This document shows positions 1 through 63,789 of a stretch of 64,000 bases of DNA, one piece after another. A model generated the notes under the pieces. It did not search any database. It saw only the letters and a list, made by a program, of their open reading frames with translations, and was not told the origin of the DNA. Each line of letters starts with the position of its first letter. Position 1 is the stretch's first letter. The DNA comes from Tubiluchus corallicola. Taxonomy: Eukaryota; Animalia; Priapulida. Both the position numbers and the translations under genes were made by a program. Location: the NCBI GenBank assembly GCA_030141605.1, contig JAQGDQ010000198.1, positions 1 through 64,000 on the forward strand, in the 5' to 3' direction.

Positions 1-699
1 TAACCCTAACCCTAAACTCATATTTTATAAATGTACTATTTTCCCCTATTTCTCCATTTGTGTCCAGTTTTCCTGAGCCATTTTTTCCTGTGCTGTTTTC
101 ACCGTGCCATTTTTATCTGTGCCATTCTTTAACGTGCACCATAATTTTCATGAGGTATAATAGTTCGGGATGTGAATCAACATTCTCCTTTCTAATGACA
201 TTTATGCTATGCTTACAAAACACGTACAATTATACATGTATCTGAAACAATGTAAATCAAATTATCGTCATTTTTATTCCGCTGTTCGAAATTTCTTGAA
301 CAGTAATAATTTGTGATAATTATATGACAATTTAAACAATCTGTATCAAACAGTAGGTTATCCATTTTGCCGGCCTTGCTTGGTGTGTTAGTCTATAAGA
401 TTAGTATAATCATTACCGTTATCAAATAAAAAATTGTCTTACTATAACATCTGTGTGAATGCATATATTTCCCATCTCACGTATATACAAACCTAAACAA
501 TATTTACTCATCCTTATTAGTTGACTTACAATTCTATACTCGTTTTTGTTAGTTTCTGTGTGCCTTGTGTTACTGACAGGAATGGCAGTGTACTGAAAAA
601 TAATACAGTACTAAATATTTAATGTTTAATGAGCTACTTTTTTATTAACCAATTTCAGCTATAATTTCAATTGTTGTTGTCGTTGCTGTTGCTGCTGCG

Positions 700-775
700 A
701 TTACTGTTAATGTTGTTATTATTTCCGTTGTCGTTATTATTACTATTATTATTATTATTATTACTATTATTATTC
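700..775. repeat. Imperfect (TTA/TTG)n trinucleotide microsatellite
   Basis: ttattattactattattattatta run; explains the poly-Leu start of ORF 671-1054. Confidence 0.85.
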
Positions 776-920
776 CCATCTGATATAGAATATGTACGTA
801 CAATGTTGTTAACAGACAAACGAATATACAAAAATGTTCATAAAATTCAGCCTTCCAGAGAAAGACAGGCCGTTGACCATCAATGTGTAACTGATCATGA
901 AAACTTGTTTTCTTTTACAG

Positions 921-3900
921 TTGTTTTGATGTTTGTGAACTGCGTGAACGTGACATGGGCAACCCGAGTTCAAGACGTGTTCACCTTTGCCAAACTGTTG
1001 GCATTGGCTATGATCATCATCACTGGAATTGTACAGTTATGCAGAGGTCAGTGACCAAAATACGTCTAATTATTCTTCACAAGTACAATTAGCTAATTAC
1101 CACGTCTATTATTATAGTTCAGTTAAAACCATTTACAGAAATCTAATTGATACCAGTGTAACAAAAACGAGCTCGTGTCTGTTTTTTATATCACACACTG
1201 TATGGCTGCTCTGGTAGACAATTAACTGTACAATTTGGCGTTACAGTTCACAACTAATCTACTCTGAGTGCATTATTTTCTGGGTTAGTATTTAACCGCC
1301 AACATAACTACTGTAATGAGTCGAATGAAAATACACCCTTCCCAAGTGCTGGTTCTTTTTATTCGTATTTATTAAGTCCTGAGTCCGGTTTTTCTTTTCT
1401 TATTTATTAAAAGGTCACTATTGTAAAGCGATCAGCAATTAATTTCATGATCAGTGTTAAAGCTTTTTAGCTAACTAGATCTTTGAAGTTTACATACTCA
1501 TCTACAGACACTTCATTTTCACAACGTAGTCTTCACCCTAGTCTTCCTTGACCTTGGCCAGGGCGTTGGTCATTGACAGTGGTCTGTTAACTGAAAACCA
1601 CTTCTGCTAAAAGTTATTTTTTCTTCCTGTCTCACGCAAAACGCGTTTCCTGTTTTGTTGTCAGTCTGCATGTTTCAATTTGAAATGTTGCACTGCTTTG
1701 TTTAAAGTTTGAAACTGGGGCTAACGTACTAGAAGTACTGGCCGGTTCAAACTAACGCAATGAATTTCTATTTCCTGCACTTTCAAATGCCTTTCAAATC
1801 ATGAAGAGTTGCACCGCATGTACGTAAATTTTTTATTAAACTGTGTGATGCATAAAAAACTGTTTGTAATGCTCACATGGGAGATGACTTCAGTAAAGAA
1901 TCAAAAGAATCAGAATAGTGAAAAAGCCTAGCGTTTTAGTTCTGAATTTTGCGAAATACTTCAGTATTCTACTGAACTTGTGATGGTCACAGTTATGAGC
2001 GCAAAGGCTTTGGATAAGCTAATATTACCATGATTGCATCTTCTATAGTAGTGTCTTCCTGTTTTTTCCCATGGCCGGTGCTTTTATGTTGATTATCTGC
2101 CGGATCGAGGCGTTCTAGTATTCCAAGTTTTTGTATTGTACTTAGAAGAATGTAACTGGTGAACCCAGACAGTAGACATTTTACATATTTCACAGTTTAT
2201 TTCTATCAAGGGGAGGGTGCTTTTCTTCGTTCACCCTACATTCACGAAGAGCCTGGTCGTAGATTGTATACGGCGCGCATTCAGAATTTAGAGCACGGAG
2301 AATTAGTAAAGTATCATTCAGAATTTTAGAGCACGGAAAGAATTTTGGAATATGATACGTTTTGATAATTTTCTGTGCTCTAAAATTCTGAATGCACGCA
2401 TAGAACGAAACTGCTAGGTAGTTTCGGCATGTATATCCCAGTTTAATCAAGAAGTACAAGGAAGGGTTTCCTGTGAAGATGACTAGTTGATTGGGTGAAG
2501 TAATTTTATTTCCTTCTCAAGATTATCCCAGATTTGACAAGCCTGCTTTAACTGCCATTGATTATACTCACGCTAGACGAAGAAAATCTATTTTCGTCTA
2601 AAAAGACGATTGAAAGTGTCCTAGATTTGAAAGCGTGGGTGGCTCCCAGTGATGAAATCTTTGTGTAGGCTCAAAATTTGGAGCTATAAGTAGCGTTTAC
2701 CTGGAATCCCGAATGCGTATGAGTTATGTTGATTCAGAACAAATAAAATCCGTTTATATTGTTTTAAATGCACCCTTTTTGTGAGACCTACGTTATGTGT
2801 TTTTTCCTGCAATGTGTTTTCTATTTAATTTTTATATGCAGCTATTCCGCAAGTGGATAACGCATAACGCATTCCGGGTGCTAGGTAAACGCCACTTAAG
2901 TGACGTTTATTTAGTACCCGGAATGCGTATGCGTTATGAGGTCCTGATTCCGCGGAATAGATAAAGTGTGTTTATATTGTTTTCAATGCACTCGTTTATC
3001 TGACCTGCGTTATGCGTTGTTCTTTTTCTGCAGTTATTTCTAACGATTTTTTATTCCACAACTATACGGCAGGCGGATAACGCATATCGCATTCCGGATG
3101 CTACATAAAGTACAGAATGAGCGAATTCTTGTCACGTGACGTCACCTATCTTTTTCATGAAAAACTTTTCGTTTGCTAGTTTTTATTAAAAACTCATTCT
3201 CCTTTGTCAGTTAATGTAACTAATAAAACTGGTTAATAGTTCGTCACTCTTTGTTAAAGAGTTAAGAACGAGTCCGCGAGAGCACCAAGCAGAGGATGGC
3301 ACATGAGGGGTGACGAATTTATATCATTTTTTTCTAACATGAAGGGCGACCCCTCAAAACCATGTAACCAAGATATCAAATCGGTCGAGCTACTATTAGC
3401 AGAGAAATGACCACATCAGGAAATTGACTTCAAAAGAGGCAAAAAATCGCTATTTCCGGGGGTTATTTTAACTTTTTCTCCTGTATAAACTATTATAGAT
3501 GGGTCGATATAAGTTGGCTGGTACATAGACTCAGACATTGTCTTCTGATATCCTAACTTTTTCTGACATACTATTAATAGTATCAGAGAACGGGATTTTT
3601 CAAATTCGGCTCTTTGGGAGTTCGAGTCCAGGGAGAGGTTAAGTTGTAAGGCTCATAACTCGCCCACTGCGGGGCTACAGAACTTCTGGTTTTCATGTAT
3701 GTGTTAACCATCATCCTCACTAATAATATAAAAAAGAAAATTCGCTGGAGCCTGTTTCAGTATTTAGTACTGGCACTTTAAAATTTCTCAAAAATCAGCA
3801 AAATTCGCCTTTTTTGTAGTTTTTCAATATTTTTTCTATCTATATGCTGGATTATAAGTGACAAATTTGTATTCTAAATTTCATGAAAATGCACGAGCTG

Positions 3901-6900
3901 AGATAATATCATGAATGACATTATATAAAGGGGGCACTGTTAGAAAAAATTGCCATATCAACACACTTTTTTTGCTTTCCATAGTAATTCCGTCCATGTG
4001 TAAAAAGTAGACATACTTGGCTCAGGTCGTATATGACAGTAGACATTTAACCTGCATTTTCTGTGACTAGTGCTCTAATTTCCTAGTAGCAATAGATTTC
4101 TTTGCCATGGAAATTGCTAGAAATTTGCGAATTTCATCTTAAATTGGTTTAGTTATGTTGGAATTTTCATATGACTACAAATATAAATAATTGCCTCTGG
4201 ATTTCAGGACAGGACATCATGCATGCCCCTAGTACCGAGTCCGACCCTGATTCAGGGCATTCTCTACACACTGAATCACTAATGGATACCAGGAAAGACT
4301 AAACAATAAGCCCTCTAATAGAAAAGAAGTACCGATTGTTAAGATTGAGAGTCATTGCTAGCGAAAGAATCTGACAACACTTGGTGTATACATAAAAAAT
4401 AGAAATCCATTCATTTTTATACATCTGCTCATTTTTTATACTTTTTATATGAATAAGCTTCATGGCTATACATAGAAGATTATGAATATCAGTACAAAAA
4501 TGAAAAACTACAAAACTCAGTCAGAATTATTTTCTCTAAGTCCAAAATACTGTTCTTATTGTAGCAGCATAAACCTATCACTGAAGAGTAGTACAAGTAA
4601 TCAAAACCATAATATCTAAACAATAAAGAAAGAATTATCGATGCAGGTAGATTATCGCTAGAAGATAGATACAGAAATATAGACAAATATATCATGGGGA
4701 AAGTGATAAAGTGAAAATCTTACAGTCTAAACATGAGGCAATATAAGCATATGGGCCGCTTCTAGGGGGATGGCGGTGATATTTAGCTCAGAAAATTTTT
4801 CTTTGCCCAAAATTTATTTGTGGCACCAAATCGATACTTCTGACAAAAAATATTAATAGTGTGATTGAATGATTGCGCCAATGGGACAAAAATTTTCGAT
4901 GTTTTACAGTCAAAAAATCACCGGACAAACGATATCAAGTCTGTCCCATATTTTTTGGGCATTCGCTCAGATTTAGGGCAATTTTCTTTGTGTCCTGGCT
5001 TGTACGCCTATGTAAGACAAGGAGTAATAACTAGGTAATAACCTGTACATAACATTTACAAAGCATAGAAAATAAACAGTACATAAAACATTTTCCAGTC
5101 CTTGCAAGAAGCAATTTCCATTCCATAGATATTTTATTTTTTTAAGATTGGAAGCGCTCCAAATGCGGTCCAGTGTCTTTAGCACAGGCTAATAGATTCG
5201 CAATATTCGTTTCGTGCGGATAACTAGTCAGAATACCGCATTTAACACTGGTAAACATCCCAGAAAACGAACATTTTAGTTCAGCAGTGGCCGCCATCTT
5301 GAATGATGGAGTCCAATCCTGTCGGTAGTTTAACCAATGTGCTGGCCAGGCCCCTAGTTGCCAAAGATGAATATTTATGATGTTTTGAACTCTTTTGACA
5401 AGATTTGACAACTCATGTTTACCTACACGAAGCTTTTTGGTGAACGTTGTTACCTATATTTTCACCCTGATATATGCCTCTTTCAGGGGTCTTTTACAAT
5501 AGGGTGGAAATTCGCTCCATCGAAATTGTCACTGCAGCACATGCTCTATTCACATACATATCGATATTTTTGTCCCCGCCCCCGCAGTGGGTGAGATATA
5601 AGACTTTGAAATGACTGAGTATTTGCATCTTGTGCGTGATGCGAGCTTAAAGACCCCCAGTAGAGCCGAAAGAGGGGGGTTTGGGACAAAAGTCGAAAAG
5701 TCATTTTGGAGAAGATAACAAGATCCAATACTGTGCAGAGTCAGATCTATTCAAACTCAGTAGTTGCTGCATGACTAATCCTTCAAATATGAGTACAAAA
5801 TAGAGAAAAATTGGCATTTTTTCATGAAAATCGGCCTATGCCGTACCTCTGCTACTATGAGGAGTTGGGCTTAGCGGATTCACATAGTGAATACTAGTGA
5901 CTAGTGGACCTCATACCCGAACTTTGGAATCGGTTTACCTAACCTTGTGCCGGAATTTTTCGATTTTGCATGGTCTTCTCGCGGACGCGTTCTTAAACTT
6001 TCCTTGACGGTCTGTTGAAAGTTAGGACTGTCGTCTGTAAAACATTCAATGTTAGCAATCTCATCTGATCATTATTAATGTTATCACTAAAGTAGCTGAT
6101 GCCGCAGACTGAATTCTACGACAGCCAGCTGGCGTAAAGAGTTAAAAGATAGGGCACTAATTTTATCTCAACCTTGTAAACAAGTTGGTTAATTTTATCA
6201 TGGCTAACTCTGTACGACTGAGGAACGATTGCGGCACCATAGTGTTTTATACTAATCTATCGTTCTCATGTCTAATCTGAGTGTTTTAATCTGATTGCAA
6301 AATCGTGCATGACAAACGTACATGCAGACGGCAGATCCGTCTAACAATGAAAATGCTCTACAGCGCTTGGAGTTTTCAGCACTGGTTTATATTAGAACTC
6401 GTTAACCTGGGTTTTACCTCTAACACAGTTTAATTTTTTACGAAGTGAGAAACTATACACGGCAACTGAGTTTGTTGAATTGATTACATGGTTGAATAAA
6501 ATTGTAAGACTGTATTTTTTTCTATTAAGAGCCTCGAGCTATTGTATCTCTAGTAACATTTAATTTAATCATTTAATACGGTAATTGGTTGTGTAAATTG
6601 TTGCTCACATAGATTTACTCAGTTTAGTATACCTGCGGGCTGTGGCTAAAACTTCGGTTTTAATTGATGTTGTTAGTACTTTCCAGCCTCTCAGCGTTGA
6701 GTTGAGTGAACGTTCATTGATTTTGGCTCTTTGCCAGGTATGAACTCACGAACGTGTCACGCATTGCAGGTTGTTAATGAACGTCTTATTGGCTTCATTT
6801 AGGCTATAAATCTGGATAATTAATTCTGTACTTATGGCCTCTTGTGCGCTTGAGACGATAGAAATGTCAAAATTGCAATTTTTAGACAAACGGGACGAGA

Positions 6901-9900
6901 ACACAAGCCTCTCAATGTTGATAACATTTTATATGATGTCTATTATCTCTGTATTGTGGCTCTGGGTGTTTTAACTTCATATCAATAACCGTTTGATCGC
7001 TAAACACCGTAAAACTCAGTTTTCTTGCTGTCCCTAATGAGCACTCTGAACAACAAGTTGTTATTGGTTTGGTGATTGCTTTTGAAATATCGTCTCCGTT
7101 CTTGTTTTAACTATATCTTTTTGGTTCAGTTTAAGTTAGATTTCCAGTCGGTTCACAAAATTTTATGTGAGACTGTAATTAATCAAATTAAAAGTAAAGT
7201 TATTAAGTATCACTCAGTATTAGTAACTGTCAGCTGCTTCAAGTGACATTCTGCGATTAACCAATCAAATTACTGCTAAACAACGAAAACAAATTAGTTT
7301 TATACGTGCAAGTAATTTTTGCTTCACATGAATTTTATATTCTCAATGAGAGCCCTATATAGTCTACTCTTGTCAGATGCTGGTAGTTTATATAGCTACA
7401 CCACTGTTAAAGTGTTAGTGTTGCATTTTATTGTATTATTACACTAGCAGTGCCCTCGATTCCAGGAAAATGAACTGATAAAACCAGTTTTAACCAGCTT
7501 CTGCCGGTTCTGTGCCATTAGTCTGGGTCAGTATCATGGAACTGTGTCATTAAGGAAGCCAGAATTATTACTGCCATAAAAAGTTCTGGGTTAGTCTTGT
7601 ATGTAATTTTACGTAAAGTCATTAGACACTGTAATTACGAGATACTTATGACATTAACGATAGTCTGAATTTTATTGCGTTTCACGAAGAAGTCGTATCA
7701 ACAAAAATTTTATAGCGCTAAACGCCGCAAAACAAATTTTGTAGCTATATGTGTTAATAAATGCTGTTTCAGATTAAATAATTTCATACTGGTGACAATT
7801 GTTGTACTAAGAATGCAATTACAGCGTCCCAATCGTGGGCAGGTTGATGATTAGTTGTGTAAATTAAATTAGCATTATTGGTTGCGGAGAGCCGTGTCAC
7901 GTGACCACGAGCTGTCATTTTCAGAACTCTCTCAATCTCGCGGGTATTCTAGCTGTTCTTGTCTCCCTATTCATAGCAGTGATTGACCAAGCAACCGTAC
8001 GTAAGCCAAACATAATGCTCAAAACTTTCTGATTTGTCACTATCCGCTGATTTGTAAGTTTTATACAGTTTGTGCAGTTACATTCTTGCGAGCAAAATGC
8101 TTTTATTTACTTCAAAAAGTCAAAATGGTTCATACTAAATTTGAAACGTGTGATTCGTTCTGTTGCATGAGACGTTGATAAAAAACTTCTAGTAGCATTA
8201 GTGACCTGCTATGTCCCAAGAAGTCATGTAATTCAAATCACAGTCTACAAATAAGACGAAACTTTGAATCTTCATACACTGAAGAACTACAAACACACCG
8301 TATGTGTCCTGTGTAAATTTATCGATATTTATATTTATCGATAGTGCAAGCACCTCAGATGTGCTCCCTACTAGTGCAGTATATGGCATGCCATTATCTG
8401 CAACATGCAACAACAGGTATCATAGTAACACTTAGGAACCTAAATCGTATCGCAGTTAAATAATATTACTTGTACTAGTGAATAAATGTATAAAATAGCC
8501 TATTTGTCTTCGGTTACACTTCATCCTGTCCCTTTTCCCGCCTCTTTCAAATTGACTAGCGAACATCACGTGACTGACTGCCTAGCAATGATACGAATAC
8601 TCAAAGCCCGTCTTCTTTCTTTTTGATGTTTTTCCGGTAATAGCTTGTTTTACTCTATTTCAGCTTCTCCTTTTGGTTTTTGCTCCATTAAATTGTCATT
8701 TGCTGCTCATACACACAATCATTACTTATCACTAGGGCTTCTAAAGTTACTGTCAGTTTGAATCAGTTGGATAATTCATTGTGGAATTTGTGAATGACAT
8801 TTTATTTTTCTGCATGGTGTAATGACAAGACATAGTTCAGTGTTGTTAAAAGTGCATGGTGATTCGCCTCTATAAGTTTTACTTAAATCAAAGTGTGTAG
8901 ATCAATGTATTATAGTCGATTAGTTTTAAATGTTAGCTAGTAACTTGGCTGCGTGATTCTTAAACTTTTTTATTTAGCTCGTGCATTACTTATGTTAGGG
9001 ATTTTTATATTTTTCTTTCAGTTTACCTGTATAAGTTGAACAGAAATTGTGATTTTGCTGACACATTGATTGTGGCTGAAATCAAACAATTGTTGTCCAT
9101 TAACTAAGAGTGCATGCATCTTAATCCATTTTATGCCACATTGATGACTTATCAGCAACACAGCTTTTATGTCTGCTTTGTACAGTTGCCCATTGCCAAT
9201 TCACTATTCTATAATTGCATGAATGTGTATTCACCTTAACTGGTGATTTGCGTTTTGCGTTTTCATATTTCATGTCCCACTGTGTTTTAGGTCAAACACA
9301 GTATTTTGAGAATCCGTTTGAGGGCACACAAACGAACATAGCTCAAGCTGCACTGGGATTTTATTCTGGCTTGTTTGCTTATAATGGCTGGTAAGATCAC
9401 ATGTCATGGTAATAATGGCAATCCCTTTCTTGTTGTTACATGGACGATAGACTAGAATGTTAACACATTTCCTTCAGTTGTGTGTTCACACACGCTTCCT
9501 AAACAAAAACTGTCAAGCCACAAGAAATAATGCTTACCTTAGAAAAGTTGCACAGAATTACAATATTGGGTGTATTCCTGTTGTTTTCTTTCATTCTGAT
9601 CTTTATGCCCTGAAATTAGTCGTGCACAGGACAAGAACAGTAGTGATCCCAAGATTGTGCAATAGCTTGTGTCTTGTTTTATGAACAATATACAAGGGCA
9701 TTCCTTATCTTATTAAATTAACAAAAAGTGTTGCTGTTATCATTTTATTTAGCCGGACCACAGTTTTAAGAAAGTTCTCATTTTGTGATTTTTGGTCTGG
9801 TAAATCAGTAAATGCTTTGTTATTTCCCCACCCCTAGATCTTACTCTGGACCTCTTTTTTAGTCACCATAACACTGTTAAAGTGTACTTATTCTTATTTA

Positions 9901-12900
9901 GCTTTTTTGAAAACAAAATCCATGTATTAAACTAACAACATAGTAAAATATGAAAGACACTAGGAGGAAATAAGATATCTTCAGATGAACAATTTAAGCA
10001 ACTACCGATACATAGCTGTTGTGTGTTTAAACCTGCCAAATGTTTTATTGCATAATGTTAAGGAAAACAAAATTCTTTATTCAGATTAACTACGCTACCA
10101 TAATTGAAAAATTACATTAAATGCATCAATTTTGCCCAGTTTCCTTTATACCTGCGATTTTGTGTTCTTTTACATCTTTGGCTAGTATGGAGAAGTGTTA
10201 CTTAATTGTATTTGATGGTCTTTTATAACCAAGAGCAAAGTACTAAACGGTAAACCATAAAACTTGTTTTAGAATTGAGAAGCGGCCACAATGTTGAATG
10301 GGTTCAAATTCATTTAGCACCTGAAATTGGTGGTGTATTGATCCTCATTCTTTATAGCTTTTATTGTCTCCTTATAAAAACTATGCTTTGTAAAACTCTC
10401 CGAATAAGATAAACAGCACTCACAGCAGTTGTAATTAAGTTAAAAACTTGGCATTTTAGCATCTAAAATTTTAGATACTTCAGTATAAAATTTTACAAAG
10501 AATTCTCAGTTAGGCCTGCTAGGGCATAAATTACGTGCTTCATGAAATTTAAAACAGTAATACATTTTAAACAGTAAAACAGATTTTACTTATGTCATTA
10601 AAATGACGTTCTGTATGCCTGTCATTTAGAAGTATTTATGACTTTCTCTTTCTTTGAGTACTGCAGAATGAAATTAAAATTTGGTAATAGCAAAATTTAA
10701 ACACCAAAGTTAAATAAATATTTGTAACATTAAAACCCATAAACTACTGCTGCTACCATTTCATTGACTAACATCACCTTTCTGTTCAAATATAAACAAG
10801 AATAATGGTAGGCATTTCCTTCGTTATGCACAGATTTGTAAATGCACTTTCACTGCTTTGCTGCTTCTGTGTAGAAATGTTCTAGTTCACACTATTCAAG
10901 TTTATCGTCGTGGGCTTAACAACAGGAAAGCATTTTGCCATTATTTTTGGCATTATTCATGCAAATGTCATTTAAACTAAATGGATTATTTCAGGAGAAG
11001 TACACTATTTCAAGAGTCCGTGGGCAGACAGTGCAACCTCTATTACTTCGGTAGCACTAGCATTTTACTCCGGGCTATTCGCTTATAACGGATGGTAAAA
11101 AATCTACCGTTTATCGACTTGTCAATTGTGATGGCTTACTGTCTAACAAGCTATTTTTCCAATAACTTTGGTAGCTTACACTCGCATAGAACTAAAACAG
11201 TGCAATATATGTGTGCTTGCAGAGCAAAATGTCCAAAAGACCACAGTTAGGCTTTTCTGGCAGTTCGTATATACTGACTCTGCGTTTCATGAGGATCGTT
11301 TTGATACTAAGCTCATCGCTCTATGTTATTTCTAATGAGATCATGCACATTGAAGTTGAAGATAGGGTGCGAACTGAAAAACAATTTTCAGAAAACCACT
11401 GTTAAAATTTGCCATTGTTTTTGTCACGTTTCTATGAAAATGCTTAGCAAACGTACTAAAGTGAGGTTGCTGTGGACTGTGCAAGAACATATTGAAGTTT
11501 AGTTGAAATACAGTAGATTGCTCTTCTAGACAAAGATCTGGGCTGGGGAAACGGAAAAAGCACAAGCAAAATGACTTCTTCCACGAGTTGTTATCGTATT
11601 TTGAAAATACTAGTTTTTCACAATTGCAATGCTAGGCAGAGCAGGTAGGGTTATAAAATTAAAACTTTTTGGTATTTTTCAAACAATTTCCTGATGCTTT
11701 GATGCTAGAATATAAAACGTCCAATACATTTGGCATTTGTTTTAGAAAAAAACTGATATTTGACCCAATTTTTGATGCATTCGGCTTTGAAACATTATAA
11801 TGTAGTTTAACTATGCTGACTTACAGACTGTTTTGGTATGCAAGCACACATGTATCAAAGGCGAAGCATTGATATTGTAACTCGGTACTAATATAGTGGT
11901 AAACAGCTTTGCTAATTTACCACCTTTTCAGAAAAATGCAGGTCTGTAAAGCTAACATGGAATGACTAGTTGGTGAGTAGTTTAGCTTGTAGTTAGCTAG
12001 AAAAACTGAAATGATGAAAATATTGACCATCTAACCGGAAGACAACAAAACTACTAATATGATTGTGCATGCTTACGTAACACACATCCTCAGTTTTGCA
12101 GTAAGTTGTGCATTTGTAATATTCTATAATTCTAGGATATTGCTGTGTTTTCGGAAAAAAATGAATTCAATTTTTAACATTTTGTATGCTTAATTTGGTT
12201 GCCTTCCTGTGATATTCTCACTAGCCGTCTATATGTAAAACTATACTAAATTTAAAACAGTTATATTTCAAAATAATTCTTAATAACAAGAATAGTAATA
12301 ATGAATAAAAAATCCCAAAAATGGAAACAAAGAAAAAGAAAGGAAGCTTAAATGTTGTTATCTTTAACATTTACTGTTCGATTTCATTTGAGAAGGCTGT
12401 TATGGGCTTTTGTGTATGAATTTTTAAATTAAAATTGTTATTTCTTTTTAGGAATTATTTGAACTTTGTGATTGAAGAATTGCAAGATCCTGTAAAGTAA
12501 GTTGTGCTTCACTATGTTTGGCATAACATTTACTTGAGTAATCTATACTCAGATGTCCAATCTTGTACCAAATGAAACCGTGTACCAAAAGTGCCGCAAA
12601 AGGCGAGCCCAAATAGCATGACCAAAACCACAATTCCCACTATCGTGAATGTCATTTTTTATAACAGTGTAGCAGTTTCTCAGCACACTATATGCTCGTC
12701 AATTTTGTGCTGGATGTATTTGTACCATATTAGTTAAGCAGTAAATTTTGCTTACATGTATTGAAATTGAAAAGCCGAAAAGTTACCTAAAGTATTCTAC
12801 ATTTATTTCTTAGTGACTGTTTGGTAAGATAACTGTGCAGCCTGATAACAATGTTAATTGTTTTTAATGATTTTGCAGGAATTTGCCAAAAGCTGTAGGC

Positions 12901-15900
12901 ATTTCTTGCGCTATTGTCATCTTCACGTACGTCATGACAAATGTGGCATTCTTGACTACCGTGTCAAAAGAAGAGATCTTGTCTAGTCCAGCTGTTGCAG
13001 TGGTCAGTAGTTTTGTAATTATAAGAAATTATGGTGACATTTCACATTTTCCAGGTAATGCTGTCACCAACCAAAACACTGACTCTCACGTGGTATTTGG
13101 ACTGCTTCCATTGTTAACACCGTGTTTTGTCAAGCTAATGCTGAGTTCATTTTAAGAGGCTGACCATTCTGGTCTCAGTTAGAAGTTTGGAAGAAAACCT
13201 GATCTTTAAACACAAAAACAACTTTATACATAAGGAATTAAATGTTGAAAGCATTTGGTTGTTAAATTTTTATGCACACTTTTTTGCTAATTTTTTTCTC
13301 ACTGATCCATCTTTATAAGTGGAGAAAACTTTTTTGCTAATTAACAGTGAGTTTACAAAATGTTACTAACATAACAGGCGAGTTTTTGTTTCACTGAGTT
13401 ACTGTATTTTTTATTTTGTTAAAGTGTGAAACTATGATTATAGTGAATAACAGCACATGAATCGTGTTACAAGATCTATAAAATAACCAGTTGAGAATTC
13501 TTAACACAAGTCAGTGAACTAGCAAAAGTGGTACTAAAAAGTGTAAACTAACTATGCGCTGTTTGCAGCTGTTTGCCGAGAGATTATATGGTGTCATGGC
13601 GTGGATTATGCCTGTCTGCGTTGCCATGTCCACATTCGGGACCGTTAACGGAATCCTTTTCACCTCTGCACGCTTGTTTTATGTCGGCGCACGAGAGGGA
13701 CACATGCCTGAAATTCTCACTATGATTCAACCTAAACTACTGACTCCATTGCCAGCTGTTTTATTCATGGTAAGCATACACACTACATACCTGAACATGA
13801 TCAAGTTTATGTTCCTTCAATGCTTAAGGGCTGTCATCTATCTTTATGAGTGGACGAAACTGTTGTGCTAATTAATGATGAGTTTATCAGTAAAATTGTT
13901 ATGCTCAATAGTAAAATATTATTAACACTACTCATTACTAATTATATTACTTATACAATATTGTGCACAATATTACTAATACAACGAGTGTAAAACCAAA
14001 AAATGGTTTGCAAAATGCTGCAAAAAGGTCTTGCCCCTTTTTATTAAATGGAGTTTTTGTCAGCTTATGTACCAAATTTGTAGAAAGTAACTCGAATTTT
14101 TTGGTTCATCATTTTAAATTCTGTGACTGCACGATCACAACTCGAAATTGATTCCACAATTAGGGGTGAGCATCGAACGTTCGAATTGAATTCAAACGCC
14201 CGAATTCGATTCGAACGAGTTTTTTTAATTCGAACTAGATTCGAATCCAAAACTATAGATTCGAATAATTCAGCACTTCAGTCACATACGTTCTTTATCA
14301 TTAAAACATCATGGAACATCTTGCAATTAGCATAATTTAGCTGTGATTTCTGTGCACAATTTTATATCAATTACTAGTCGGTTTATTGCAGAACACAATC
14401 TAGTGATATGCATGATCTTTGTAAGACTAATTTTTACTGGTGGTTCGAAAACTTGTTCGAAAATCTATCAACCTCAATTCGAATTCGGTTCGAATTCAAA
14501 ACACTGAAGTTCGGTTCGATTCGAATTCGAAAGTCACAAATTCGGTTCGATTCGAATTCGCTTTCTAGTAGAGAATGCTCACCCCAATCCACAATGTAGT
14601 CTTGCTCCAATTTCTATTGATAATGGCATTGGTTTCGTTTCCATAACAAAGCTAATAAACACAAAATTTAATTGCTAAACTACGTGTGCTTTCCTGGGAG
14701 TTTTAGAGTTTCATTTCTCTAGCATTTTCATTTAAATTACATTCTCTGTTAGTTCCAGGTCTGTTTTGAATGCTGTCACTTGTAGGCTATTATCAGCTGT
14801 AAAATATCAATTGTATAAACAGCACGTTATACAGCCTGTATGACATTGATGAAACATTATGTCTGCTATTATATTTTTTGAAAAAAGTTTTATGGTTTCC
14901 AGTTTCCTTAAAACTTATTTTGTATCTCAAGCTACAGTTAATGCAACTTTATATGACGAACTTTGTAAATTAGTGGAACTGTATTTTTTGAATTTATAAA
15001 GATATGAGGGTAACTGATTTGATATTACTAAATTGATAAGTTTATTTATTGGATAGTGGTGTGATTAAAATTTAGAAATAAACCAGGAAATTTTGAAATA
15101 CTTGTGTCATTTCCTGAGAGTGATATATAGTTTTGAATATTTTTTGGTAACATTGCCTAAACATGTTATTTATGTGAGATAGTGATGCCATGTGCTTGTT
15201 AATATTATTTATTATTCCAGGGATGTATATCATTACTGTACCTTGCATCAAGTCAGATTTATGCATTAATCAACTACGTTAGCTTTGTGTGTTGGCTTGC
15301 AATTGGCCTTGCTGTGTTCAGTGTATTATGGTTTCGTTGGAAGAGACCTGATGCTCCTCGGCCAATTAAAGTAAGTTCATGGGTGGATTGCAATTGCAGT
15401 ATTTTATGTATATGAGACAATTTTTATTATATGTTTTGGCGTATTATGGGCTAGAGTCAAAGACTCATGGTGAATGGTTCCATGTAGCAGGAACAGGACA
15501 TAGCTCATTGGTCAAGGGTAATTGTCTGAGGTGAGACCTTTCTAAGTCAATAAATTGTAGTGATACTCAGTTCTCCTGTGGACATTATGAATTAATCCTG
15601 CCCTCCCAAATACAAAACTAGCAGAGTGCCAAGCCCCCAGTTCAATGAGTTTATATAAATGAACAAGGGTAAACATTTTTGAGGATGTTTATTTACGAGA
15701 GTAAGAGTCTTCGTTGTGTAAATTTGTTTCTTGCACAGTTTGGAGTAATTCTGGTGGTCCTGTGCTGAGTTGTATGATTTATCGCTTTAGATTTAGTCCC
15801 ATTTAACAAAACAGAAATGCGATTTTACAAGTCCTAAAAAAACTTTTGGTGATAAAATTGTTTGGCATTTGTTTTACATATGTACATATTACTTATTGTA

Positions 15901-18799
15901 TATGTGAAAATGTGTTTTTAGTGCACATATCAGAAAACTTGCAACTCTAGATCCTGATCTCAAGTACAATAACATCCGTCTTATATTTTGAGATCTTTGT
16001 AGGTGATCATCAATTTTGAAATTTACATTTTGCACTAAACATGTAAAAATTATAAAAATGGAACTATGATAAGCAAACATGGTATCATTAAAGCTATTTA
16101 ATTAGAATTTTGATTTTTTTAGGATATTAAATATTCCTCATTTACAATGTACAGTATTAATTGCTTGCTTTTGATTGATCACTACTCCTACACAGATGAA
16201 TTTTCTTTTCATGGAACAGAAAATTACATTTACATTTCTTACATTTTCTTAATTTTTGATGTAGAATTTTAGATTTTAAGATTACATAAACACCTAATTT
16301 TACATTCTATTTCACATAAAGAATGTTTCAAAATAAAATATGAGAATATGTGTGTTACTCATTTTTTTAACATCTTTTTATCTGTATGTTGAAAGCACAT
16401 ATATACACGCAGACAATTTTTTCCAAATTTGGCATTCAGGTTTTTCTTTAGAAGTCATAAAATAATAGGACTACTGTTCAGTAAAAAAAAACTATGCACT
16501 TGTTGTTACGACTATTGGGAGGCTGAGAACTACTAAATTTTAACCTAAACTATTCTGTGCTTTCCTTACATTGTAACTTAACATTTTAGTAAATTCCTGA
16601 TTTTAGGATCTCTTACTGTGGCTCAGTAAGAGCCAGCTATACAGCAAAAATCTAAACAATACTGCTGTTTTCCTAATTTTATAATTTTATTTGTTTGTTT
16701 TCATATTATTTGATGCTGGGGAGGTTTATTATTTGTTAGCCATTTGTTATTATTTATGTTTACCTATTTTGCCATTCCTATAGTAAAAATGAATATTCTA
16801 TGTGACTGGGAAATTTTGCAGAACCCTAAATTTCATAATATTATAGGTACAACGTTTTAAATTCAGATGTTCAGTTGTTCACTCACATAAATAGGAAATT
16901 AAAGTTAGAAGTATTTTCTTACAAACTAGTTTAATTCAATCTGATAGCAGATTTAAGTAAACATTTAGTGTTAGGTTGCATAATATTTTTTTATATATTT
17001 TTTCAGGTTAATCTGATTTTCCCTATTCTTTATGTGCTTGGCTCCATTTTTCTAGTAGTATTGCCTGCGATAGCCAGTCCGATAGACACAGGTTAGTAAC
17101 ATCTTAGATTCTAAGATTATGCATCTGCATCACATGGTAAAAAGCTACACTGTTTGGTGTAATTAGTCTGTGTGGAAAAATAGTGTGCACTTTTTGCGTC
17201 TTTTTTCGGTGTATAATTAGTCTGTGTTGCACTGAGGAGTGCAGGTCTTAAACACATGAAGCAAAGGATTATGCAATCTGGCAGAAGACTCTGTACCAGT
17301 GTTTGGTGCTTAGTGAGACATCACTTTTGCCAGGAAGGCAATAATACACACTGACGTGGCGCTAGATGTGGACGGCAAATGGAATACAACTCAACTGTAC
17401 CCAGTGTTACAGGAGATCATAGCAAAATATTAAGAAGAGTTCATTGGCAAGCCGGTTGATGAAGGAACCTCTAGCTCCGCATCTGAGGCCGCTGAACAAG
17501 TTTCTGATTGAAAAGCAAAACATTATTACTGTCATTTAAATTTCATTGGAAATAAAGTCTATATTGGAATGAAAAAAATTCTATGAAATTAGTCTGTGCG
17601 GAAAATTAGTCTAACACAGATTAATTTTGATGGTACGCATTAAAAAGTTATTTCAGAATTTGTCTCAGGCAGACTAATTACACAAGTAGTTGTGCACATA
17701 TTTTTAAGATTTGAGTTTAGACTAAAACTGAATTAAGTTTTGTATAGATTTTTAATTGTGCAAATTTTGTTAGCATTGATTTTTGTACTGAATTGAATTA
17801 GCTCCATTGAAATATGTTAAGGGACATATTTCGACATTGAGCAAAATCTTACTTCACTCTAGAAAGGTTTTGTAAGTTTTATAACACTTGAAATTAAGTT
17901 TAAAATCAATAAACATATTTAAAAGAAAGTTTGGACTGGTTACACGAAGAGATGGCTGTGATTCCTACAAGTTTACTTCCAGTTCATAACATTTCTTAAT
18001 AAATAGCAACATGCACATGAACGACTTGAGCTGTCTGTAGTTTTATTGTTAATTAAATATTGGATTTTTCGCACATATGTAAAATGTACCGGGGGTAACA
18101 AAGGTAAACTGTGAACAATTTTGTTTGCAACACACTTATTAGCAATTAGGGGTAGAATAGGCAAATTAATAGCAACCTCCCTAGTAAAGCATCTTGATTA
18201 ACAAGTGTGGCAAATAGACCAAAGTAAGGAAACAAAGTGAATGACATTGACTTTACACACAACCCGTTGTGTCCTATATAAACTTAGACAACAAATCAAC
18301 ATATTCATTTCGCAGCACTGTTCATTGAAATGCTACATTCATGAAAAAGTGCAAATAAATTGCCCTGCTTAATTGTTTGATTTTCCTTCTCATGAGTACT
18401 TACTGTCAGTTTTGTAATGTGATTATGGTTAACTAGTTTTAGTGAATGTTAATAATGCTTTATGTATGTGTACAGGTATTGGTGCAGTCATCATGCTGTC
18501 TGGTATTCCGGTTTATTACATATTCTGTTGGTGGAGAAAGCCGTTGGTCTTGAGAAAGAGAATTAGTAAGTTGAAATTTTGAAACTAGAATTTTTAAATT
18601 ATCCCTGGGTAAAATAATACTGTTTGACGTTGTTGCATTTTTTTACTAAACATCTAAAAATCATGGCACCTTTATACATATTGTAAGATTTTGTGTGCCT
18701 GAAGTGACTTAAACTAGTATTCTTGTGTTTTTTACAGATGGACTAACAATTGCAATGCAGAAGTTACTGCTAGTTGTGCCTGAAGAAAAGGAAGTATAA
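921..18799 (+). CDS. SLC7A5/SLC7A8-like: SLC7 L-type amino acid transporter light chain (LAT1/LAT2-like), 5'-partial, spliced
   Basis: GT-AG exons with consistent phases: 921-1046 ([35 protein letters not shown]), 9291-9390 OR 10995-11094 (..[11 protein letters not shown]), 12452-12496 ([15 protein letters not shown]), 12879-13002 ([10 protein letters not shown]..), 13569-13769 (..[26 protein letters not shown]), 15221-15370 (..[11 protein letters not shown]), 17007-17091, 18476-18565, 18738-18799 (stop TAA). These motifs are typical of the LAT subfamily of SLC7. The N-terminal exon(s) lie before the window. Confidence 0.96.
2273..2399. mobile_element. Small MITE-like inverted-repeat element
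   Basis: gcgcgcattcagaattt(t)agagcac at left, a second direct copy near 2314, and inverted gtgctctaaaattctgaatgcacgc at right. Confidence 0.55.
2689..3112. mobile_element. Head-to-tail dimer of a ~210-bp MITE joined at a TA
   Basis: Copy 1 (2689-2896) has ~40-bp imperfect TIRs agtagcgtttacctgg..gaatgcgtatgagttat / ataacgcataacgcattccgggtgctaggtaaacgccact; TA at 2687-2688 and 2897-2898; copy 2 starts at 2899 with homologous TIR and interior. Confidence 0.75.
3266..5992. mobile_element. 2.7-kb non-autonomous DNA transposon with TTAA target duplication (Kolobok-like)
   Basis: TTAA|GAACGAGTCCGCGAGAGCACCAAGCA ... TGCATGGTCTTCTCGCGGACGCGTTC|TTAA (22/26 TIR match); purine-purine terminus fits Kolobok better than piggyBac (CC/CY ends); no transposase ORF. 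Confidence 0.75.
9291..9390 (+). CDS. SLC7 alternative exon A (100 nt; extracellular loop 3 plus first half of TM6)
   Basis: ttttag|...|gtaaga, phase 1 to phase 2, encodes [34 protein letters not shown]. Confidence 0.93.
10995..11094 (+). CDS. SLC7 alternative exon B (100 nt paralog of exon A)
   Basis: tttcag|...|gtaaaa, phase 1 to phase 2, encodes [34 protein letters not shown]; no stops or frameshift. Confidence 0.9.
11285..11850. mobile_element. Dispersed repeat family, copy 1 (probable old non-autonomous DNA transposon)
   Basis: Collinear similarity to 26135-26535 (ttttgatac(t/c)aagctcatcgc; ctgttaaaatt.gccattgttttt; gctttgaa.cat.ataa.gtagttt; gttttggt.tgcaagcacacat). Confidence 0.7.
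14161..14587. mobile_element. hAT-type MITE (427 bp)
   Basis: TIR TAGGGGTGAGCAT...ATGCTCACCCCAA; perfect 8-bp TSD tccacaat (14153-14160, 14588-14595); subterminal TTCGAA repeats. Confidence 0.9.
17147..17695. mobile_element. Internally deleted DNA transposon with subterminal AATTAGTCTG repeats
   Basis: Perfect 14-bp inverted repeat gtgtaattagtctg (17157-17170) / cagactaattacac (17670-17683), further internal copies, and a relic coding-like interior ([25 protein letters not shown]). Confidence 0.6.
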
Positions 18800-20446
18800 T
18801 ATACTGGTTTGTTCTAATGAAATTTCACAACAGAAGAAGAACAAAGAAAAATTCTCTTTTCATTGATTTTTCTGAAACTATCATTATGTCATACATATTT
18901 TGCAGTTATGCTCAATTAGGAAGAAACTACTTTCAAGTTTTTCAGGCTGATCACAGTTGTTTTAAAAAGTAAATTTTATCTTCTCAAATTATCCAAACAG
19001 TTTTTTAAAGACTAATAAGTTTCGTGGAACCAGTCCATGAGACTACAAATTTGTAGTTTTACAAAACTGTTTTTAGCTTCTATGAAAATGAGCCTTAGTT
19101 TTTTCCTTAGACTGTCAAATTTCTTCATGGTGAATTAAGAACATCCTTATTTTGAGGTTTCATGCCTGGAACACCAGAACGATTGTTGGGGGTTATAAGT
19201 TAACACTGACAATGTGAGACCAGAAATTGTCTTACGTTGTTAAGCCAGGTTTAGAAATGCTCTACCGGGCCTGGAAAATCTTTGCTGATTGACGGACATG
19301 ACAGATGCAGTCCGTGGGACACTTCTGGCAGTGGGAAACAAATTTTTACTTCAAATATTTTTTTACAATTTTAATAAAAAGTAGGTTTTCTTTCTTTATT
19401 AGTAAAAATGACGTTCACACATTCAAATACTTATTCAAAGTTACAATGTGATTATTACGTGCAGTAATATTTTTTCGAGTTCCTGCATACCCTGCAACTT
19501 CTCTCTAGGTATTGCGTTGCACTCAAAAATTTGGCAGCAGCAGAACGTCCAGGTGTAATTCTATGTGCATATACCCAGCAACTATTATTGTGGGGTCTCC
19601 TAGAAATAGGCCTGCTGCTATAAGGATATTATTTTTATTTTTGCAGTTGCATAGCTAGCCTTCTAACTCCTACCAAGAGACAATACTAAAATTTTACTTA
19701 TTAAGAGTTTAAACTTAAAGTGTTATCTTGCTGATTCATTTAAAAAATTTGTGGTTCGCTTGAAATTGTACTAATATAGTTAGCGTAGCAACTGGCCTTG
19801 CCATCTAGTCACCAACCAGTACATGCAAAAATACTTCCTTCAGTAGTTAAGCAACATCAGACATAAGAAGTGTCTAAATGGGTGAGATATTTTGCAGAAT
19901 TGTTTTCATGTTGTGTCCTAGTAAAGTGATAGAAGCAGTGAACCAAACAAAATCGTAGTAAAGTTCTAAGAAATTCTGAGGAACAGTAGCTAACGTAAGG
20001 TAAAATTATCTTGTTAAGCATCACAGTTTAACATCACTTCACTTATATGTTTGCTTGGTGTATATATAGACTACTGATTAAAATTATGAGCGAGTGTGTA
20101 ATAATAACTAAAATAGTGTTTAAAAGTAGAAACTGCATTAACAATGGAAATACATGTACGTGTAAACAGTGAAAATTTTGATAAAATTGACATTTTTGAA
20201 GTCCAACTTTTCAAATCTTTCAGTTGCAACACCCCCTGCAACTAGCTCGATCCTGGATGCTTTTCTGTAATTGTCTCTGGGCTAGGTCCATCACTGGGAT
20301 GTCAACTTTTAGTCCTTGGGACATTTATAAGATTTTCTGCTTCTGTGCTCTACTTAACAACTTTGATAGATTTGGCACTTGTTAATGTTTTATGCAGAGA
20401 ACTGGCTGTTAATTTAGAAATCAGACTTGACCTTTTTTGCTATAGA

Positions 20447-33115: not shown

Positions 33116-33257
33116 AAATATTTTAATGGTGAAGACCACACTAACAGCGTTTTAACAGGTACATTGGTTTTCGTGTCGCGATTTTCTTCTGCTGTTTTAA
33201 ACGCAAGCAGAGTTTTGGTTACCTTGTACAACAACAACAAAAAAACGAAATCTCAAA

Positions 33258-48308
<15,051 letters not shown>

Positions 48309-55800: not shown

Positions 55801-56496
55801 TATATAAATCAATGGTTTGCCCTATATTGGATTATGGTGATCTGATATGGAGCCCAAATCGTCAAGACATGATAAGGAAAATTGAAAGTATACAACGTCG
55901 AGCTACCAAGACTCGTACCTGCTGTTTCTCATTCACCATATGCTGCAAGACTTAAGAGTCTAGACCTTAGAACTCTGAAGTACAGATGCAAAAGACAATA
56001 TTTAATCCAAACATTTCATATCCTTAAAGGTATAAAAACCATCAACAGCGAAATATTTTTCCATCGACAGACATACCATGGTACAAGAATTCACTCCTAC
56101 AAAATTAAGAAGAGAACAGTTTCCCAAAGGTGGAGTAGGAGGTTCACATTTGCAAGGCGAGTACTTAATGAGTGGAACACACTGCCTGACACTGTAGTCC
56201 AAACCTCCAATCCTGCACAGTTTAAGTCTCGTCTCGATAGACACTGGAAATGCAATCCTGAAAAAATATACACCCCAGGTTGCCACAATGGCAACAAGAA
56301 AACTTGTGCTACGCTTCAAGATCGCAGTGTGGCCACCTATTTTGTTCATTTTTTATATTAATAGGGTAAACAAGGAAGAGTGGAGAGTTCCATAATCTAT
56401 TTATGCTTAAAATCTATCCTTCAACGGTAACGGAAAGTGCGCGTGCGACGACTCTGATCACGTGAAATAAAACATCGCAATGCATTACCTTGTCAT
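49872..56496 (-). CDS. NAA50: N-alpha-acetyltransferase 50 (NatE catalytic subunit), complete, 5 coding exons, ~177 aa
   Basis: Exons 56496-56489 (ATGACAAG|gtaatg), 52741 (or 52753)-52602 (RIELGDVTPHNIKQLKRLNQVVFPVSYNDKFYKDVL), 52109-51990 (YNDIVVGAVCCR..YIMTLGCLAPYRRLGIG), 51216-51150, 50070-49872 (LHVQINNE..FYKKYGFEI..HYYKRIEPADA). Phases consistent, 534 nt. Confidence 0.97.
54048..56432 (+). mobile_element. Decayed, 5'-truncated CR1-group LINE in NAA50 intron 1 (antisense to host)
   Basis: Endonuclease C-terminus (LDLL..PIGKSDH); RT motifs GPDGIH, NYRPISLTS, KAFDRVPH, PQGSVLGP, FADD; C-terminal RVLNEWNTLP..FKSRLD; several stops and frameshifts; aacggt-like tail near 56423-56432. Confidence 0.93.
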
Positions 56497-63021: not shown

Positions 63022-63789
63022 ATGACCGAAACAGTAATCGTTTCTGCCCTGCGTACACCTGTAGGTAAGAGTTGTAAAAAATTCATTTTTAATTCTTGTA
63101 TATTCAAACATCCGATTCTGCGTTTGTTGTGCTTCCTAACTAGTTGCACACTTAGTCGCATCAGTGGGGGTAATAGTTGTAATGTAAATTCCTTTGACTA
63201 CTTTTATAGATTATAGATAATTGAGTAACTTCTCATTTAATTAGAATCTAGTTAAACTTCTCATTTAATTAAAATTTAATCTTCCAATCCACCTAATTAA
63301 ATGATGTTAATTAGCTTGGCCTGAAATACCTTTATACAATTGTGATTAGAAGCACTCTGCGTTAAAAAATTTGCAGTTGCGGTTTGCTGCTGCACCTGCA
63401 GCACAGAAATTTTCAGTTTAGCACAGGGTCATTGCCATGTTTCTTAGCAATGTAACAGTTGACATAGAGCACAAAGTTACTTGCACTAATACATAAGTTC
63501 CTGAGTGAAATAAGTGCTTCTTTTACTGGCCTCCAGTACATGTAGGCCTACAATAGGCATATGGGGTGATACCTTGCAACATTTACTTTTCATGTGTTTC
63601 ATAAATTAGTGGTAATGACTCATAAATACTTTAACAACAACATTTTTATTGTAGGCAAATTAAATGGTGCTTTATCGGCGTTTTCGGCCCACGAGCTTGG
63701 CAGTTTAGCTATTAGTGAGGTTTTGAATGCTGCGAACATTCCACCATGTGATGTTTCAGAAGTTATTATGGGCCAAGTTTTAACAGCAG
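63022..63789 (+). CDS. ACAT2: Acetyl-CoA acetyltransferase, cytosolic (thiolase II), 3'-partial
   Basis: Exons 63022-63064 (MTETVIVSALRTPVG) and 63655-63789 (KLNGALSAFSAHELGSLAISEVL..DVSEVIMGQVLTAG), phase 1 junction; no mitochondrial presequence; gene continues past the window. Confidence 0.92.

What the first reader, a model, noticed from the sequence alone, without database searches (positions are those of the whole stretch)
9401..10953. Long-range intronic RNA duplex joining exon A's donor to exon B's acceptor region
Seen: the two ends of the 1.6-kb intron between the duplicated exons are extensively complementary. atgtca(9401-9406) pairs with tggcat(10948-10953); aataatggcaa..ctttcttgttgtta(9411-9438) with taacaacaggaaag..ttgccattatt(10917-10945); gacgatagactagaat(9443-9458) with attcaagtttatcgtc(10894-10909); acatttc(9465-9471) with gaaatgt(10874-10880); a weaker extension may pair ~9503-9538 with ~10807-10840. 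The transition differences in the core are G-U compatible on the sense strand, as expected for a selected RNA helix and not for a neutrally decaying DNA TIR. The helix starts 10 nt after the donor and ends 41 nt before the acceptor (candidate branch point ctaaat near 10977). Known: long-range pairing and too short a donor-to-branch-point distance both enforce exclusivity in other exon clusters. Inference: folding shortens the effective donor-to-branch distance to roughly 35-50 nt and blocks A-to-B splicing, giving an RNA-structure switch not, to my knowledge, described for SLC7 genes.
Basis: partly seen in the sequence, partly recalled or inferred. Interest (0 to 1): 0.88.

Follow-up and report, generated by a model that had tools for sequence, protein, structure and literature searches.

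The report
RNA clamp closing an exon-choice intron
In an amino-acid transporter gene, probably of a priapulid worm, the two ends of the 1.6-kb intron between two duplicated exons are strongly complementary and are predicted to fold into a 61-pair RNA helix that likely stops the two exons from being joined, a likely variant of known RNA-structure control of exon choice.

Summary
Arms 9401-9471 and 10874-10953 form a predicted 61-pair helix (-62 kcal/mol, z -10 against shuffles). No other intron-end pairing in the gene (7 tested), none of 28 orthologous single-exon introns and none of 3,827 random window pairs comes close. The gene is a LAT-type SLC7 transporter, closest to a Priapulus protein. 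Exons A and B are both 100 nt: either keeps the frame, both or neither give a stop. One probable RNA contig joins A straight to the next common exon; no transcript with B was seen. In a diverged DNA run, 5 of 6 changes in B are silent. The arms are not multicopy at 82-85% identity. Function is not shown: that run lacks the 5' arm, so there is no covariation, and conservation of the 3' arm is mixed. The folded intron leaves 15-54 nt between A's donor and the candidate branch points, at or below the 42-50 nt steric limit, and it buries the best consensus branch point. It looks more like a lock than a switch, since competing partners are weak. Closest precedent: human ATE1 R3-R4. New variant of a known kind; moderate interest.

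The parts
921..1046 (+). Common upstream exon of a LAT-type SLC7 transporter gene; followed by an 8.2-kb intron
   Evidence: tblastn with Priapulus P0001 residues 167-210, 77%; AG and GT boundaries
8811..9221 (+). Four TGCATG hexamers upstream of exon A (8811, 8853, 9111, 9216); candidate Rbfox-family sites
   Evidence: 0.28 expected in 490 nt from the window-wide rate, region chosen after looking; motif meaning from PMC12772994; untested
9291..9390 (+). Exon A, 100 nt, TAG acceptor and GTAAGA donor
   Evidence: a probable RNA contig (run X6) joins its end to 12452 across GT..AG
9401..9471 (+). 5' arm of the predicted helix, starting at intron position +11
9529..9538 (+). 5' strand of a 10-pair inner helix (weaker support)
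9472..10873 (+). Looped-out intron interior, about 1.4 kb, AT-rich; a low-copy repeat fragment near 10380-10620
   Evidence: no Pfam match in 6 open frames tested of the 13 listed; no Rfam match; extra depth in run X1
10807..10816 (+). 3' strand of the 10-pair inner helix
   Evidence: run X5 has G10811A, turning a U-G pair into U-A (depth 3.1)
10874..10953 (+). 3' arm of the predicted helix; holds the consensus branch-point candidate CUUAAC (A10919) and a U-rich tract
   Evidence: unchanged over 10895-10909 and 10915-10951 in run X5
10954..10994 (+). Free 3' end of the intron: branch-point candidates A10959 (yUnAy match), A10970, A10980/10981; short pyrimidine tract; CAG acceptor; no AG between 10931 and 10992
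   Evidence: sequence, motif and AG scan; branch point not mapped
10995..11094 (+). Exon B, 100 nt, 62% identical to A in DNA and 19 of 34 residues; CAG acceptor and GTAAAA donor
   Evidence: 5 of 6 listed changes in run X5 are synonymous, P about 0.007
12452..12496 (+). Common downstream exon C (45 nt)
   Evidence: joints 9390-12452 and 12496-12879 in run X6
12879..18800 (+). Remaining coding exons (12879-13002, 13569-13769, 15221-15370, about 17007-17091, 18476-18565, 18738-18800)
   Evidence: tblastn, boundary print-out; the last three are approximate

Best explanation
The two ends of the intron between duplicated exons A and B are complementary and are predicted to pair in the pre-mRNA, which likely pulls A's donor so close to B's branch region that the spliceosome cannot join A to B. 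Shown: the exon pair, the frame logic, the complementarity and its specificity, A spliced to the next common exon in one probable RNA contig, purifying selection on B. Inferred: the helix forms in vivo; it loops out 1.4 kb and leaves 15-54 nt between donor and branch point, so that U1 on A's donor and U2 on B's branch site exclude each other; it probably also dampens B by burying one consensus branch point and its U-rich tract. It would act as a standing lock, with the choice between A and B set by proteins (candidate TGCATG sites upstream of A) and nonsense-mediated decay removing any A+B or exon-less message. The two isoforms would differ in the stretch just before the shared [11 protein letters not shown] motif (third outer loop and start of helix 6, by recalled LAT1 topology).
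For: Helix z -10.2, pair probabilities about 0.9-1.0 in the full-intron fold. Only this intron has it: 7 other pairings in the gene and 28 orthologous introns lie between z -2.5 and +1.4; 0 of 3,827 random pairs match it. Each arm is the other's best partner among 475 windows over 1-19,000. A or B keeps the frame; A+B stops inside B; skipping both stops at once. A-to-C joint in run X6. Exon B 5 of 6 changes silent. In run X5, 0 of 8 intronic substitutions fall in the 39 core paired positions (P 0.044, core chosen after seeing the data), and 3 of 6 changes at paired helix sites keep the pair. Linker lengths by arithmetic: 15, 26 and 36 nt to A10959, A10970 and A10980 with the outer 6 pairs closed; 33, 44 and 54 nt without. 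[quoted passage not shown] In ATE1, loss of the intervening-intron element raises double inclusion (PMC7797038).
Against: No covariation: run X5 does not cover the 5' arm and no relative's genome was reachable. By energy, X5's changes spare the helix no better than random placement (62% of 1,000 placements as good or better); 3 of 6 paired-site changes break a pair against this window's 5' arm, and a 15-nt deletion removes the loop-side block. Both changes in the outermost 6 pairs weaken the part that sets the shortest distance. X5 differences rest on single contigs at depth 3-5. The branch point is unmapped; with A10980 and only the inner core paired the linker is 54 nt, which would allow splicing. 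The frameshift alone can explain exclusivity in mature mRNA. No transcript with B was seen. The window holds several stronger DNA inverted repeats, so fold-back pairs do arise here.
Confidence: 0.5

Rival explanations
1. ATE1-like switch: the helix mainly masks B's branch point and U-rich tract (default A), and weaker alternative pairings or proteins open it to let B in. Candidates are the 5' arm with 8817-8848, which would loop out A, and the 3' arm with 11120-11160, which would loop out B.
For: Two of three yUnAy matches near B lie inside the helix, and the AG-free zone 10931-10992 fits a distant branch point at A10919. The only transcript seen uses A. ATE1 R3-R4 works by hiding a 3' splice site (PMC7797038). 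Both candidate partners beat most shuffles (13 of 600, 8 of 1,500).
Against: The alternatives are -20 and -22 kcal/mol against about -60, are interrupted, and are the best 2 of 16 tests (about 0.35 and 0.09 after correction). No partner was found just upstream of A, where ATE1's R1 lies (13 to 58 of 60 shuffles as good). Flanks of A and B are not detectably similar (P 0.32 and 0.63).
Confidence: 0.2
2. Neutral relic: the arms are decayed terminal inverted repeats of an old element or a chance local inversion; exclusivity comes from the frameshift plus decay and from proteins.
For: The window has other long inverted-repeat pairs (24300-24455/25211-25367, 28766-28869/29427-29531). A 7-nt direct repeat sits at 9401-9407 and 10965-10971. 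The antisense duplex is also strong (z -7.0). The energy test in X5 is null.
Against: Depth over the arms is single-copy in runs X1, X4 and X5 while neighbouring repeats reach hundreds to thousands. No transposase trace. As DNA the pair is too weak to appear among the 28 inverted hits listed for the window, yet as RNA it beats all 3,827 random pairs. Both arms abut the splice sites of the one intron where it could matter. Strand asymmetry P 0.03-0.06. Copies under 82% alike would have been missed.
Confidence: 0.2
3. Zipper stem that helps A-to-B splicing, making a frameshifted A+B message for decay and so tuning transporter level.
For: Stems joining donor and branch regions can promote splicing in yeast, and the helix starts at the 10-nt minimum distance given there (PMC12350175). 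A+B gives a stop inside B. A 44- or 54-nt linker is possible.
Against: B keeps a full, selected coding frame matching A, which a poison exon would not need. Four of six linker estimates are under 42 nt. No A-B joint was seen, though contigs cannot show absence.
Confidence: 0.1

Closest known systems
Human ATE1 exons 7a/7b, elements R1, R3, R4 (PMC7797038; passages and Discussion read)
   Same: Two duplicated mutually exclusive exons; an element in the intervening intron pairs with the region just upstream of the second exon; losing it raises double inclusion.
   Different: ATE1 has a true competitor (R1, similar to R4, upstream of the first exon); none was found here. The helix here is predicted at 61 pairs and closes almost the whole 1.6-kb intron, starting 10 nt from the donor.
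Steric exclusion by a short donor-to-branch-point distance (OGDH 4a/4b, PMC7969005; 57 of 629 human clusters, PMC5740500; passages read)
   Same: Exclusivity because U1 and U2 cannot both assemble within about 50 nt.
   Different: There the distance is short in the linear sequence; here it is about 1.55 kb and would be short only after folding.
Yeast zipper stems (PMC12350175; passages read) and Drosophila intron-end box pairs (PMC2724269; passages read)
   Same: A stem between the 5' and 3' parts of a long intron that brings donor and branch point together.
   Different: Zipper stems leave 42-85 nt of linker and can promote splicing; Drosophila boxes average 11 nt and sit about 60 and 80 nt from the splice sites. 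This helix is far longer, closer to the sites, and overlaps a branch-point consensus.
FGFR2 IAS2/ISAR stem and SCN9A ISRE1/ISRE2 bridge (as described in PMC12772994; abstract, introduction and passages read; the position of the FGFR2 stem between exons IIIb and IIIc is recalled)
   Same: A single intronic stem, with nearby UGCAUG sites in SCN genes, controlling a two-exon cluster whose double inclusion shifts the frame.
   Different: The SCN stem lies downstream of the cluster and sets the ratio; no TGCATG lies within the A-B intron here.
SLC7A2 (CAT-2A/CAT-2B) mutually exclusive exons 7 and 8 (PMC12714141; passages read)
   Same: An SLC7 transporter diversified by a mutually exclusive exon pair.
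   Different: Cationic subfamily, not LAT; a different protein region (recalled); regulation reported through A1CF, with no RNA helix in the passages seen.

Membership tests
Tandem-duplicated mutually exclusive exon pair | Adjacent homologous exons of equal length and phase with intact splice sites | tested here: met
   Both 100 nt, AG/GT ends, 62% DNA and 19 of 34 residues alike; only two copies in the window by profile search
Tandem-duplicated mutually exclusive exon pair | Each exon is used alone in transcripts | tested here: inconclusive
   A alone seen in one probable RNA contig; B not seen; selection on B argues it is used
Tandem-duplicated mutually exclusive exon pair | Double inclusion or double skipping is absent or unproductive | tested here: inconclusive
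   Both give premature stops; their frequency cannot be read from contigs
Competing docking/selector RNA structures (Dscam, ATE1) | Two or more partners of comparable strength compete for one site | tested here: not met
   Best alternatives -20 and -22 kcal/mol against about -60; not significant after 16 tests
Competing docking/selector RNA structures (Dscam, ATE1) | Pairing conserved with compensatory changes | not testable with these tools
   No orthologous 5' arm reachable
Steric exclusion (donor to branch point under about 50 nt) | Linear donor-to-branch-point distance under about 50 nt | tested here: not met
   About 1.53-1.59 kb to the candidates near B
Steric exclusion (donor to branch point under about 50 nt) | Effective distance under about 42-50 nt after folding | tested here: inconclusive
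   15-54 nt by arithmetic over 3 candidate adenines and 2 helix ends; 4 of 6 under 42, 5 of 6 under 50; branch point unmapped
MITE or DNA transposon with terminal inverted repeats | Multiple genomic copies of the arms | tested here: not met
   Single-copy depth at 85% (X1) and 82% (X4, X5) likeness; older copies would be missed
MITE or DNA transposon with terminal inverted repeats | Target-site duplication flanking matched termini | tested here: inconclusive
   A 7-nt direct repeat at 9401-9407 and 10965-10971, but the termini inside it do not match and X5 differs at 10969-10970
LAT-type SLC7 light chain | Sequence and exon-by-exon similarity to LAT/y+LAT proteins with the AA_permease_2 domain | tested here: met
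   91% to Priapulus LAT2-like P0001 over one exon; P0001 matches solved y+LAT2, LAT2 and LAT1 at E 1e-147 to 1e-144; nine exon matches in order, the tail exon through P0014

The most novel reading that the evidence does not exclude
A single, non-competing fold-back of about 60 pairs turns a 1.6-kb intron into a virtual micro-intron and so enforces steric exclusion between two exons. It may have begun when an element with inverted ends landed in a 40-50-nt intron that already excluded the exons sterically; pairing of its ends kept the distance short, selection kept the pairing, and the interior decayed. This would be a route round the intron-size restriction described for OGDH, in an animal phylum for which my searches turned up no splicing-structure work.
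Probability: 0.3. Interest if true: 0.7.

Novelty: new variant of a known kind. Interest (0 to 1): 0.5.

Why it matters
Steric exclusion is screened for by linear distance, and long intervening introns are set aside (PMC5740500 analysed only introns under 500 bp for it). If folding can supply the short distance, a class of two-exon clusters now put down to decay alone may have a structural lock, and it can be found by a simple scan of intron ends. The case is clean to test: one long helix, a frameshift reporter built in, and a clear disrupt-and-compensate design. It also adds a lineage-restricted isoform switch to LAT-type transporters: the exon is single in all 81 other animal loci fetched, 12 of which span both flanking exons.

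Tried and rejected
No own genome is held, so a genome-wide search for the arms was replaced by read depth. Run search: no RNA holder listed. X4's 7% share suggested an RNA run, but it proved to be thin DNA coverage with no splice joints. Exon B absent from X6 contigs and the 5' arm absent from X5 contigs: holes, not evidence. Protein search with the exon A frame found nothing (1 candidate); the search with P0001 residues 160-300 found no second priapulid protein among the 120 listed of 359 hits, next best 69%. Cluster members of 10 relatives show isoforms differing at the termini, none in this exon. Among 189 proteins, 13 of 141 pairs with near-identical flanks differ in this exon, but the differences look like species differences in a fast loop. 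All 81 metagenome loci have one copy. No Rfam match. No Pfam match in 6 of 13 loop frames tested. No third exon copy and no second tail exon. Duplication of intron flanks with the exon: not detectable. The long inner extension: rejected except for 10 pairs. The full fold also pairs the end of exon A and its donor with 10957-10977; not counted, since X5 breaks it at 10969. A first script timed out. Three papers that may hold a direct precedent were not available and were seen only as titles: Yang 2012 on intra-intron pairing in 14-3-3, Yue 2013 on Dscam exon 17 steric hindrance plus structure, Yue 2017 on MRP. Earlier-findings look-ups by place gave nothing.
Full report
What is there. The window carries the 3' part of a LAT-type SLC7 amino-acid transporter gene on the + strand. 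One exon is 91% identical to a Priapulus caudatus LAT2-like protein (P0001); the next best of 75 hits is 80%. The organism is therefore probably a priapulid, which is an inference from similarity. P0001 matches solved y+LAT2, LAT2 and LAT1 chains at E 1e-147 to 1e-144. P0001 residues 209-242 match twice, at 9291-9390 (exon A) and 10995-11094 (exon B); a profile search finds no third copy. Both exons are 100 nt with AG and GT ends, 62% alike in DNA and 19 of 34 in protein. Either one keeps the frame; A+B stops inside B and skipping both stops at once.

Are both exons used? A 193-nt contig of run X6 (RNA by guess) joins A to the next exon at 12452 and that to 12879, both across GT..AG. So A is spliced past B. 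No contig with B was seen in that run, which proves nothing. Run X5 carries the same species label but is diverged: of its 6 listed changes in B, 5 are synonymous and one is Ile to Val, against 27% expected synonymous (P about 0.007). B is thus probably a working coding exon. X5 differences come from single contigs at depth 3-5; the synonymous pattern argues they are not errors.

The helix. In a fold of the whole intron the main blocks have pair probabilities of about 0.9-1.0. The first 90 and last 130 nt of this intron give z -10.6; 7 other donor/acceptor pairings in the gene give -2.0 to +0.6 (some boundaries were set 1-2 nt off), and 28 distinct orthologous introns give -2.5 to +1.4 (of 81 loci, those lacking the next exon, duplicates and introns under 230 nt were left out). 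None of 3,827 random window pairs reaches -66.4. Each arm is the other's best partner among 475 windows. The long extension is not significant (76 of 500 shuffles) apart from 10 pairs at 9529-9538 with 10807-10816.

RNA or old DNA repeat? No genome is held, so I used depth. Run X1 covers 9000-11328 with one contig and shows no extra depth on the arms, while the repeat just past B reaches thousands and more; X4 and X5 agree at 82% likeness. Six of the 13 open frames in the intron were scanned and match no Pfam family; Rfam finds nothing. The sense strand is 12.9 kcal/mol more stable than the antisense; simulated neutral decay reaches that in 3-6% of cases. Against function: the antisense duplex is still z -7.0, the window has several stronger DNA inverted repeats, and a 7-nt direct repeat at 9401-9407 and 10965-10971 could be a target-site relic, though the ends inside it do not match.

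Conservation is mixed. X5 covers the 3' arm only. None of its 8 substitutions in 10856-10994 hits the 39 core paired positions (P 0.044, core chosen after seeing the data), but placed at random the same 8 changes spare the energy as well or better in 62% of 1,000 trials. At paired sites, changes at 10811, 10877 and 10952 keep the pair; those at 10879, 10910 and 10953 break it against this window's 5' arm; a 15-nt deletion at 10880 removes the loop-side block. Covariation could not be tested. No second priapulid protein turned up. The exon is single in all 81 other animal loci fetched, 12 of which span both flanking exons, and isoforms of oysters and crustaceans differ at the termini, not here. 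The duplication looks lineage-restricted on this sample.

Mechanism. The branch point is unmapped. Matches to yUnAy near B give A10904 and A10919, both inside the helix, and A10959, 6 nt outside it; there is no AG from 10931 to 10992. By arithmetic, the unpaired linker from donor to A10959, A10970 and A10980 is 15, 26 and 36 nt with the outer 6 pairs closed, and 33, 44 and 54 nt without. Yeast modelling asks for at least 42 nt, and 20 nt between stem and branch point (PMC12350175); about 50 nt is cited for mammals. So most combinations would block A-to-B splicing, and the helix would probably also hinder U2 at B in general. Competing partners are weak: -20.0 for the 5' arm at 8817-8848 (13 of 600 shuffles) and -22.2 for the 3' arm at 11120-11160 (8 of 1,500), the best 2 of 16 tests. 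I therefore read it as a lock (0.5) rather than a switch (0.2), a neutral relic (0.2) or a splicing-promoting zipper (0.1). Four TGCATG sites upstream of A are a lead for how the choice is set.

Relation to what is known. Human ATE1 is the nearest case: an element in the intervening intron pairs just upstream of the second exon, and its loss gives double inclusion, but it has a real competitor. Steric exclusion is known from short linear distances. Intron-end stems are known in yeast and Drosophila. SLC7A2 already has mutually exclusive exons. Ten literature searches turned up no report of an intron-closing helix acting as a steric lock, nor of this exon pair in LAT genes, but the library lacks most subscription papers, and three likely precedents (Yang 2012, Yue 2013, Yue 2017) were seen only as titles (not held). 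What I read: passages of PMC11802352, PMC5740500, PMC7969005, PMC7404189, PMC2724269, PMC12714141, PMC12350175, PMC8042237, PMC10726166 and PMC12962786; passages and Introduction of PMC6071210; abstract, Introduction, start of Results and passages of PMC12772994; passages and Discussion of PMC7797038. No supplements were read; the cluster tables of PMC5740500 and PMC2724269 could hold similar cases.

Verdict. A real, unusually long and well-placed complementarity in the intron between a likely mutually exclusive exon pair. Function is plausible but not shown. New variant of a known kind; interest 0.5.

Noticed in passing
window 8811-9221: Four TGCATG hexamers in 410 nt upstream of exon A (0.28 expected in 490 nt); none inside the A-B intron. 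Possible Rbfox-type control of exon A.
   Followed up: partly
window 10766-10811: A near-perfect branch-site motif (GACTAAC) followed by a pyrimidine run and AGs at 10799 and 10810, just loop-side of the inner helix; a possible cryptic acceptor or QKI-type site (label recalled). Run X5 loses the 10810 AG.
   Followed up: partly
window 9401-9407 and 10965-10971: A 7-nt direct repeat; removing what lies between would leave a 40-nt intron. May be chance.
   Followed up: partly
runs X5 and X6 against window 9331-12966: Both carry the same species label as the best holder X1 yet differ by about 4-6% in exons; possibly a distinct population or cryptic species.
   Followed up: no
proteins P0019-P0129: LAT orthologues of oysters and decapods have alternative C-terminal tails, and those of abalone and Gigantopelta alternative N-terminal halves; this window shows one tail exon only.
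   Followed up: partly
loci L001-L081: Many loci fall into two exon types (beginning GEYEYF and GEVEHF) on separate contigs, some from the same assemblies: probably paralogous genes, not tandem exons.
   Followed up: partly
window 2536-3403, 3404-6007, 11216-12083: High-copy repeats inside the introns of the gene (depth in the hundreds to thousands); 11207-11858 recurs at 26055-26542.
   Followed up: no
window 24300-24455/25211-25367 and 28766-28869/29427-29531: Long inverted-repeat pairs (73% and 78%) typical of MITE-like elements.
   Followed up: no
window 33201-46839 (+), 49872-50177 (-), 63570-63857 (+): Other gene pieces: frames that resemble an Rh/ammonium transporter (recalled; Pfam did not confirm on two pieces), a GNAT acetyltransferase exon (weak Pfam; NAA50-like by recall) and a thiolase N-terminal exon.
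   Followed up: partly
window 54630-56361 (+), 61177-61554 (-): Broken reverse-transcriptase frames of LINE-like elements (Pfam RVT_1).
   Followed up: partly
window 1-14, 38150-39020, 45650-46490: Two TAACCC units at the window start (telomere-like, recalled), and long simple-repeat arrays.
   Followed up: no
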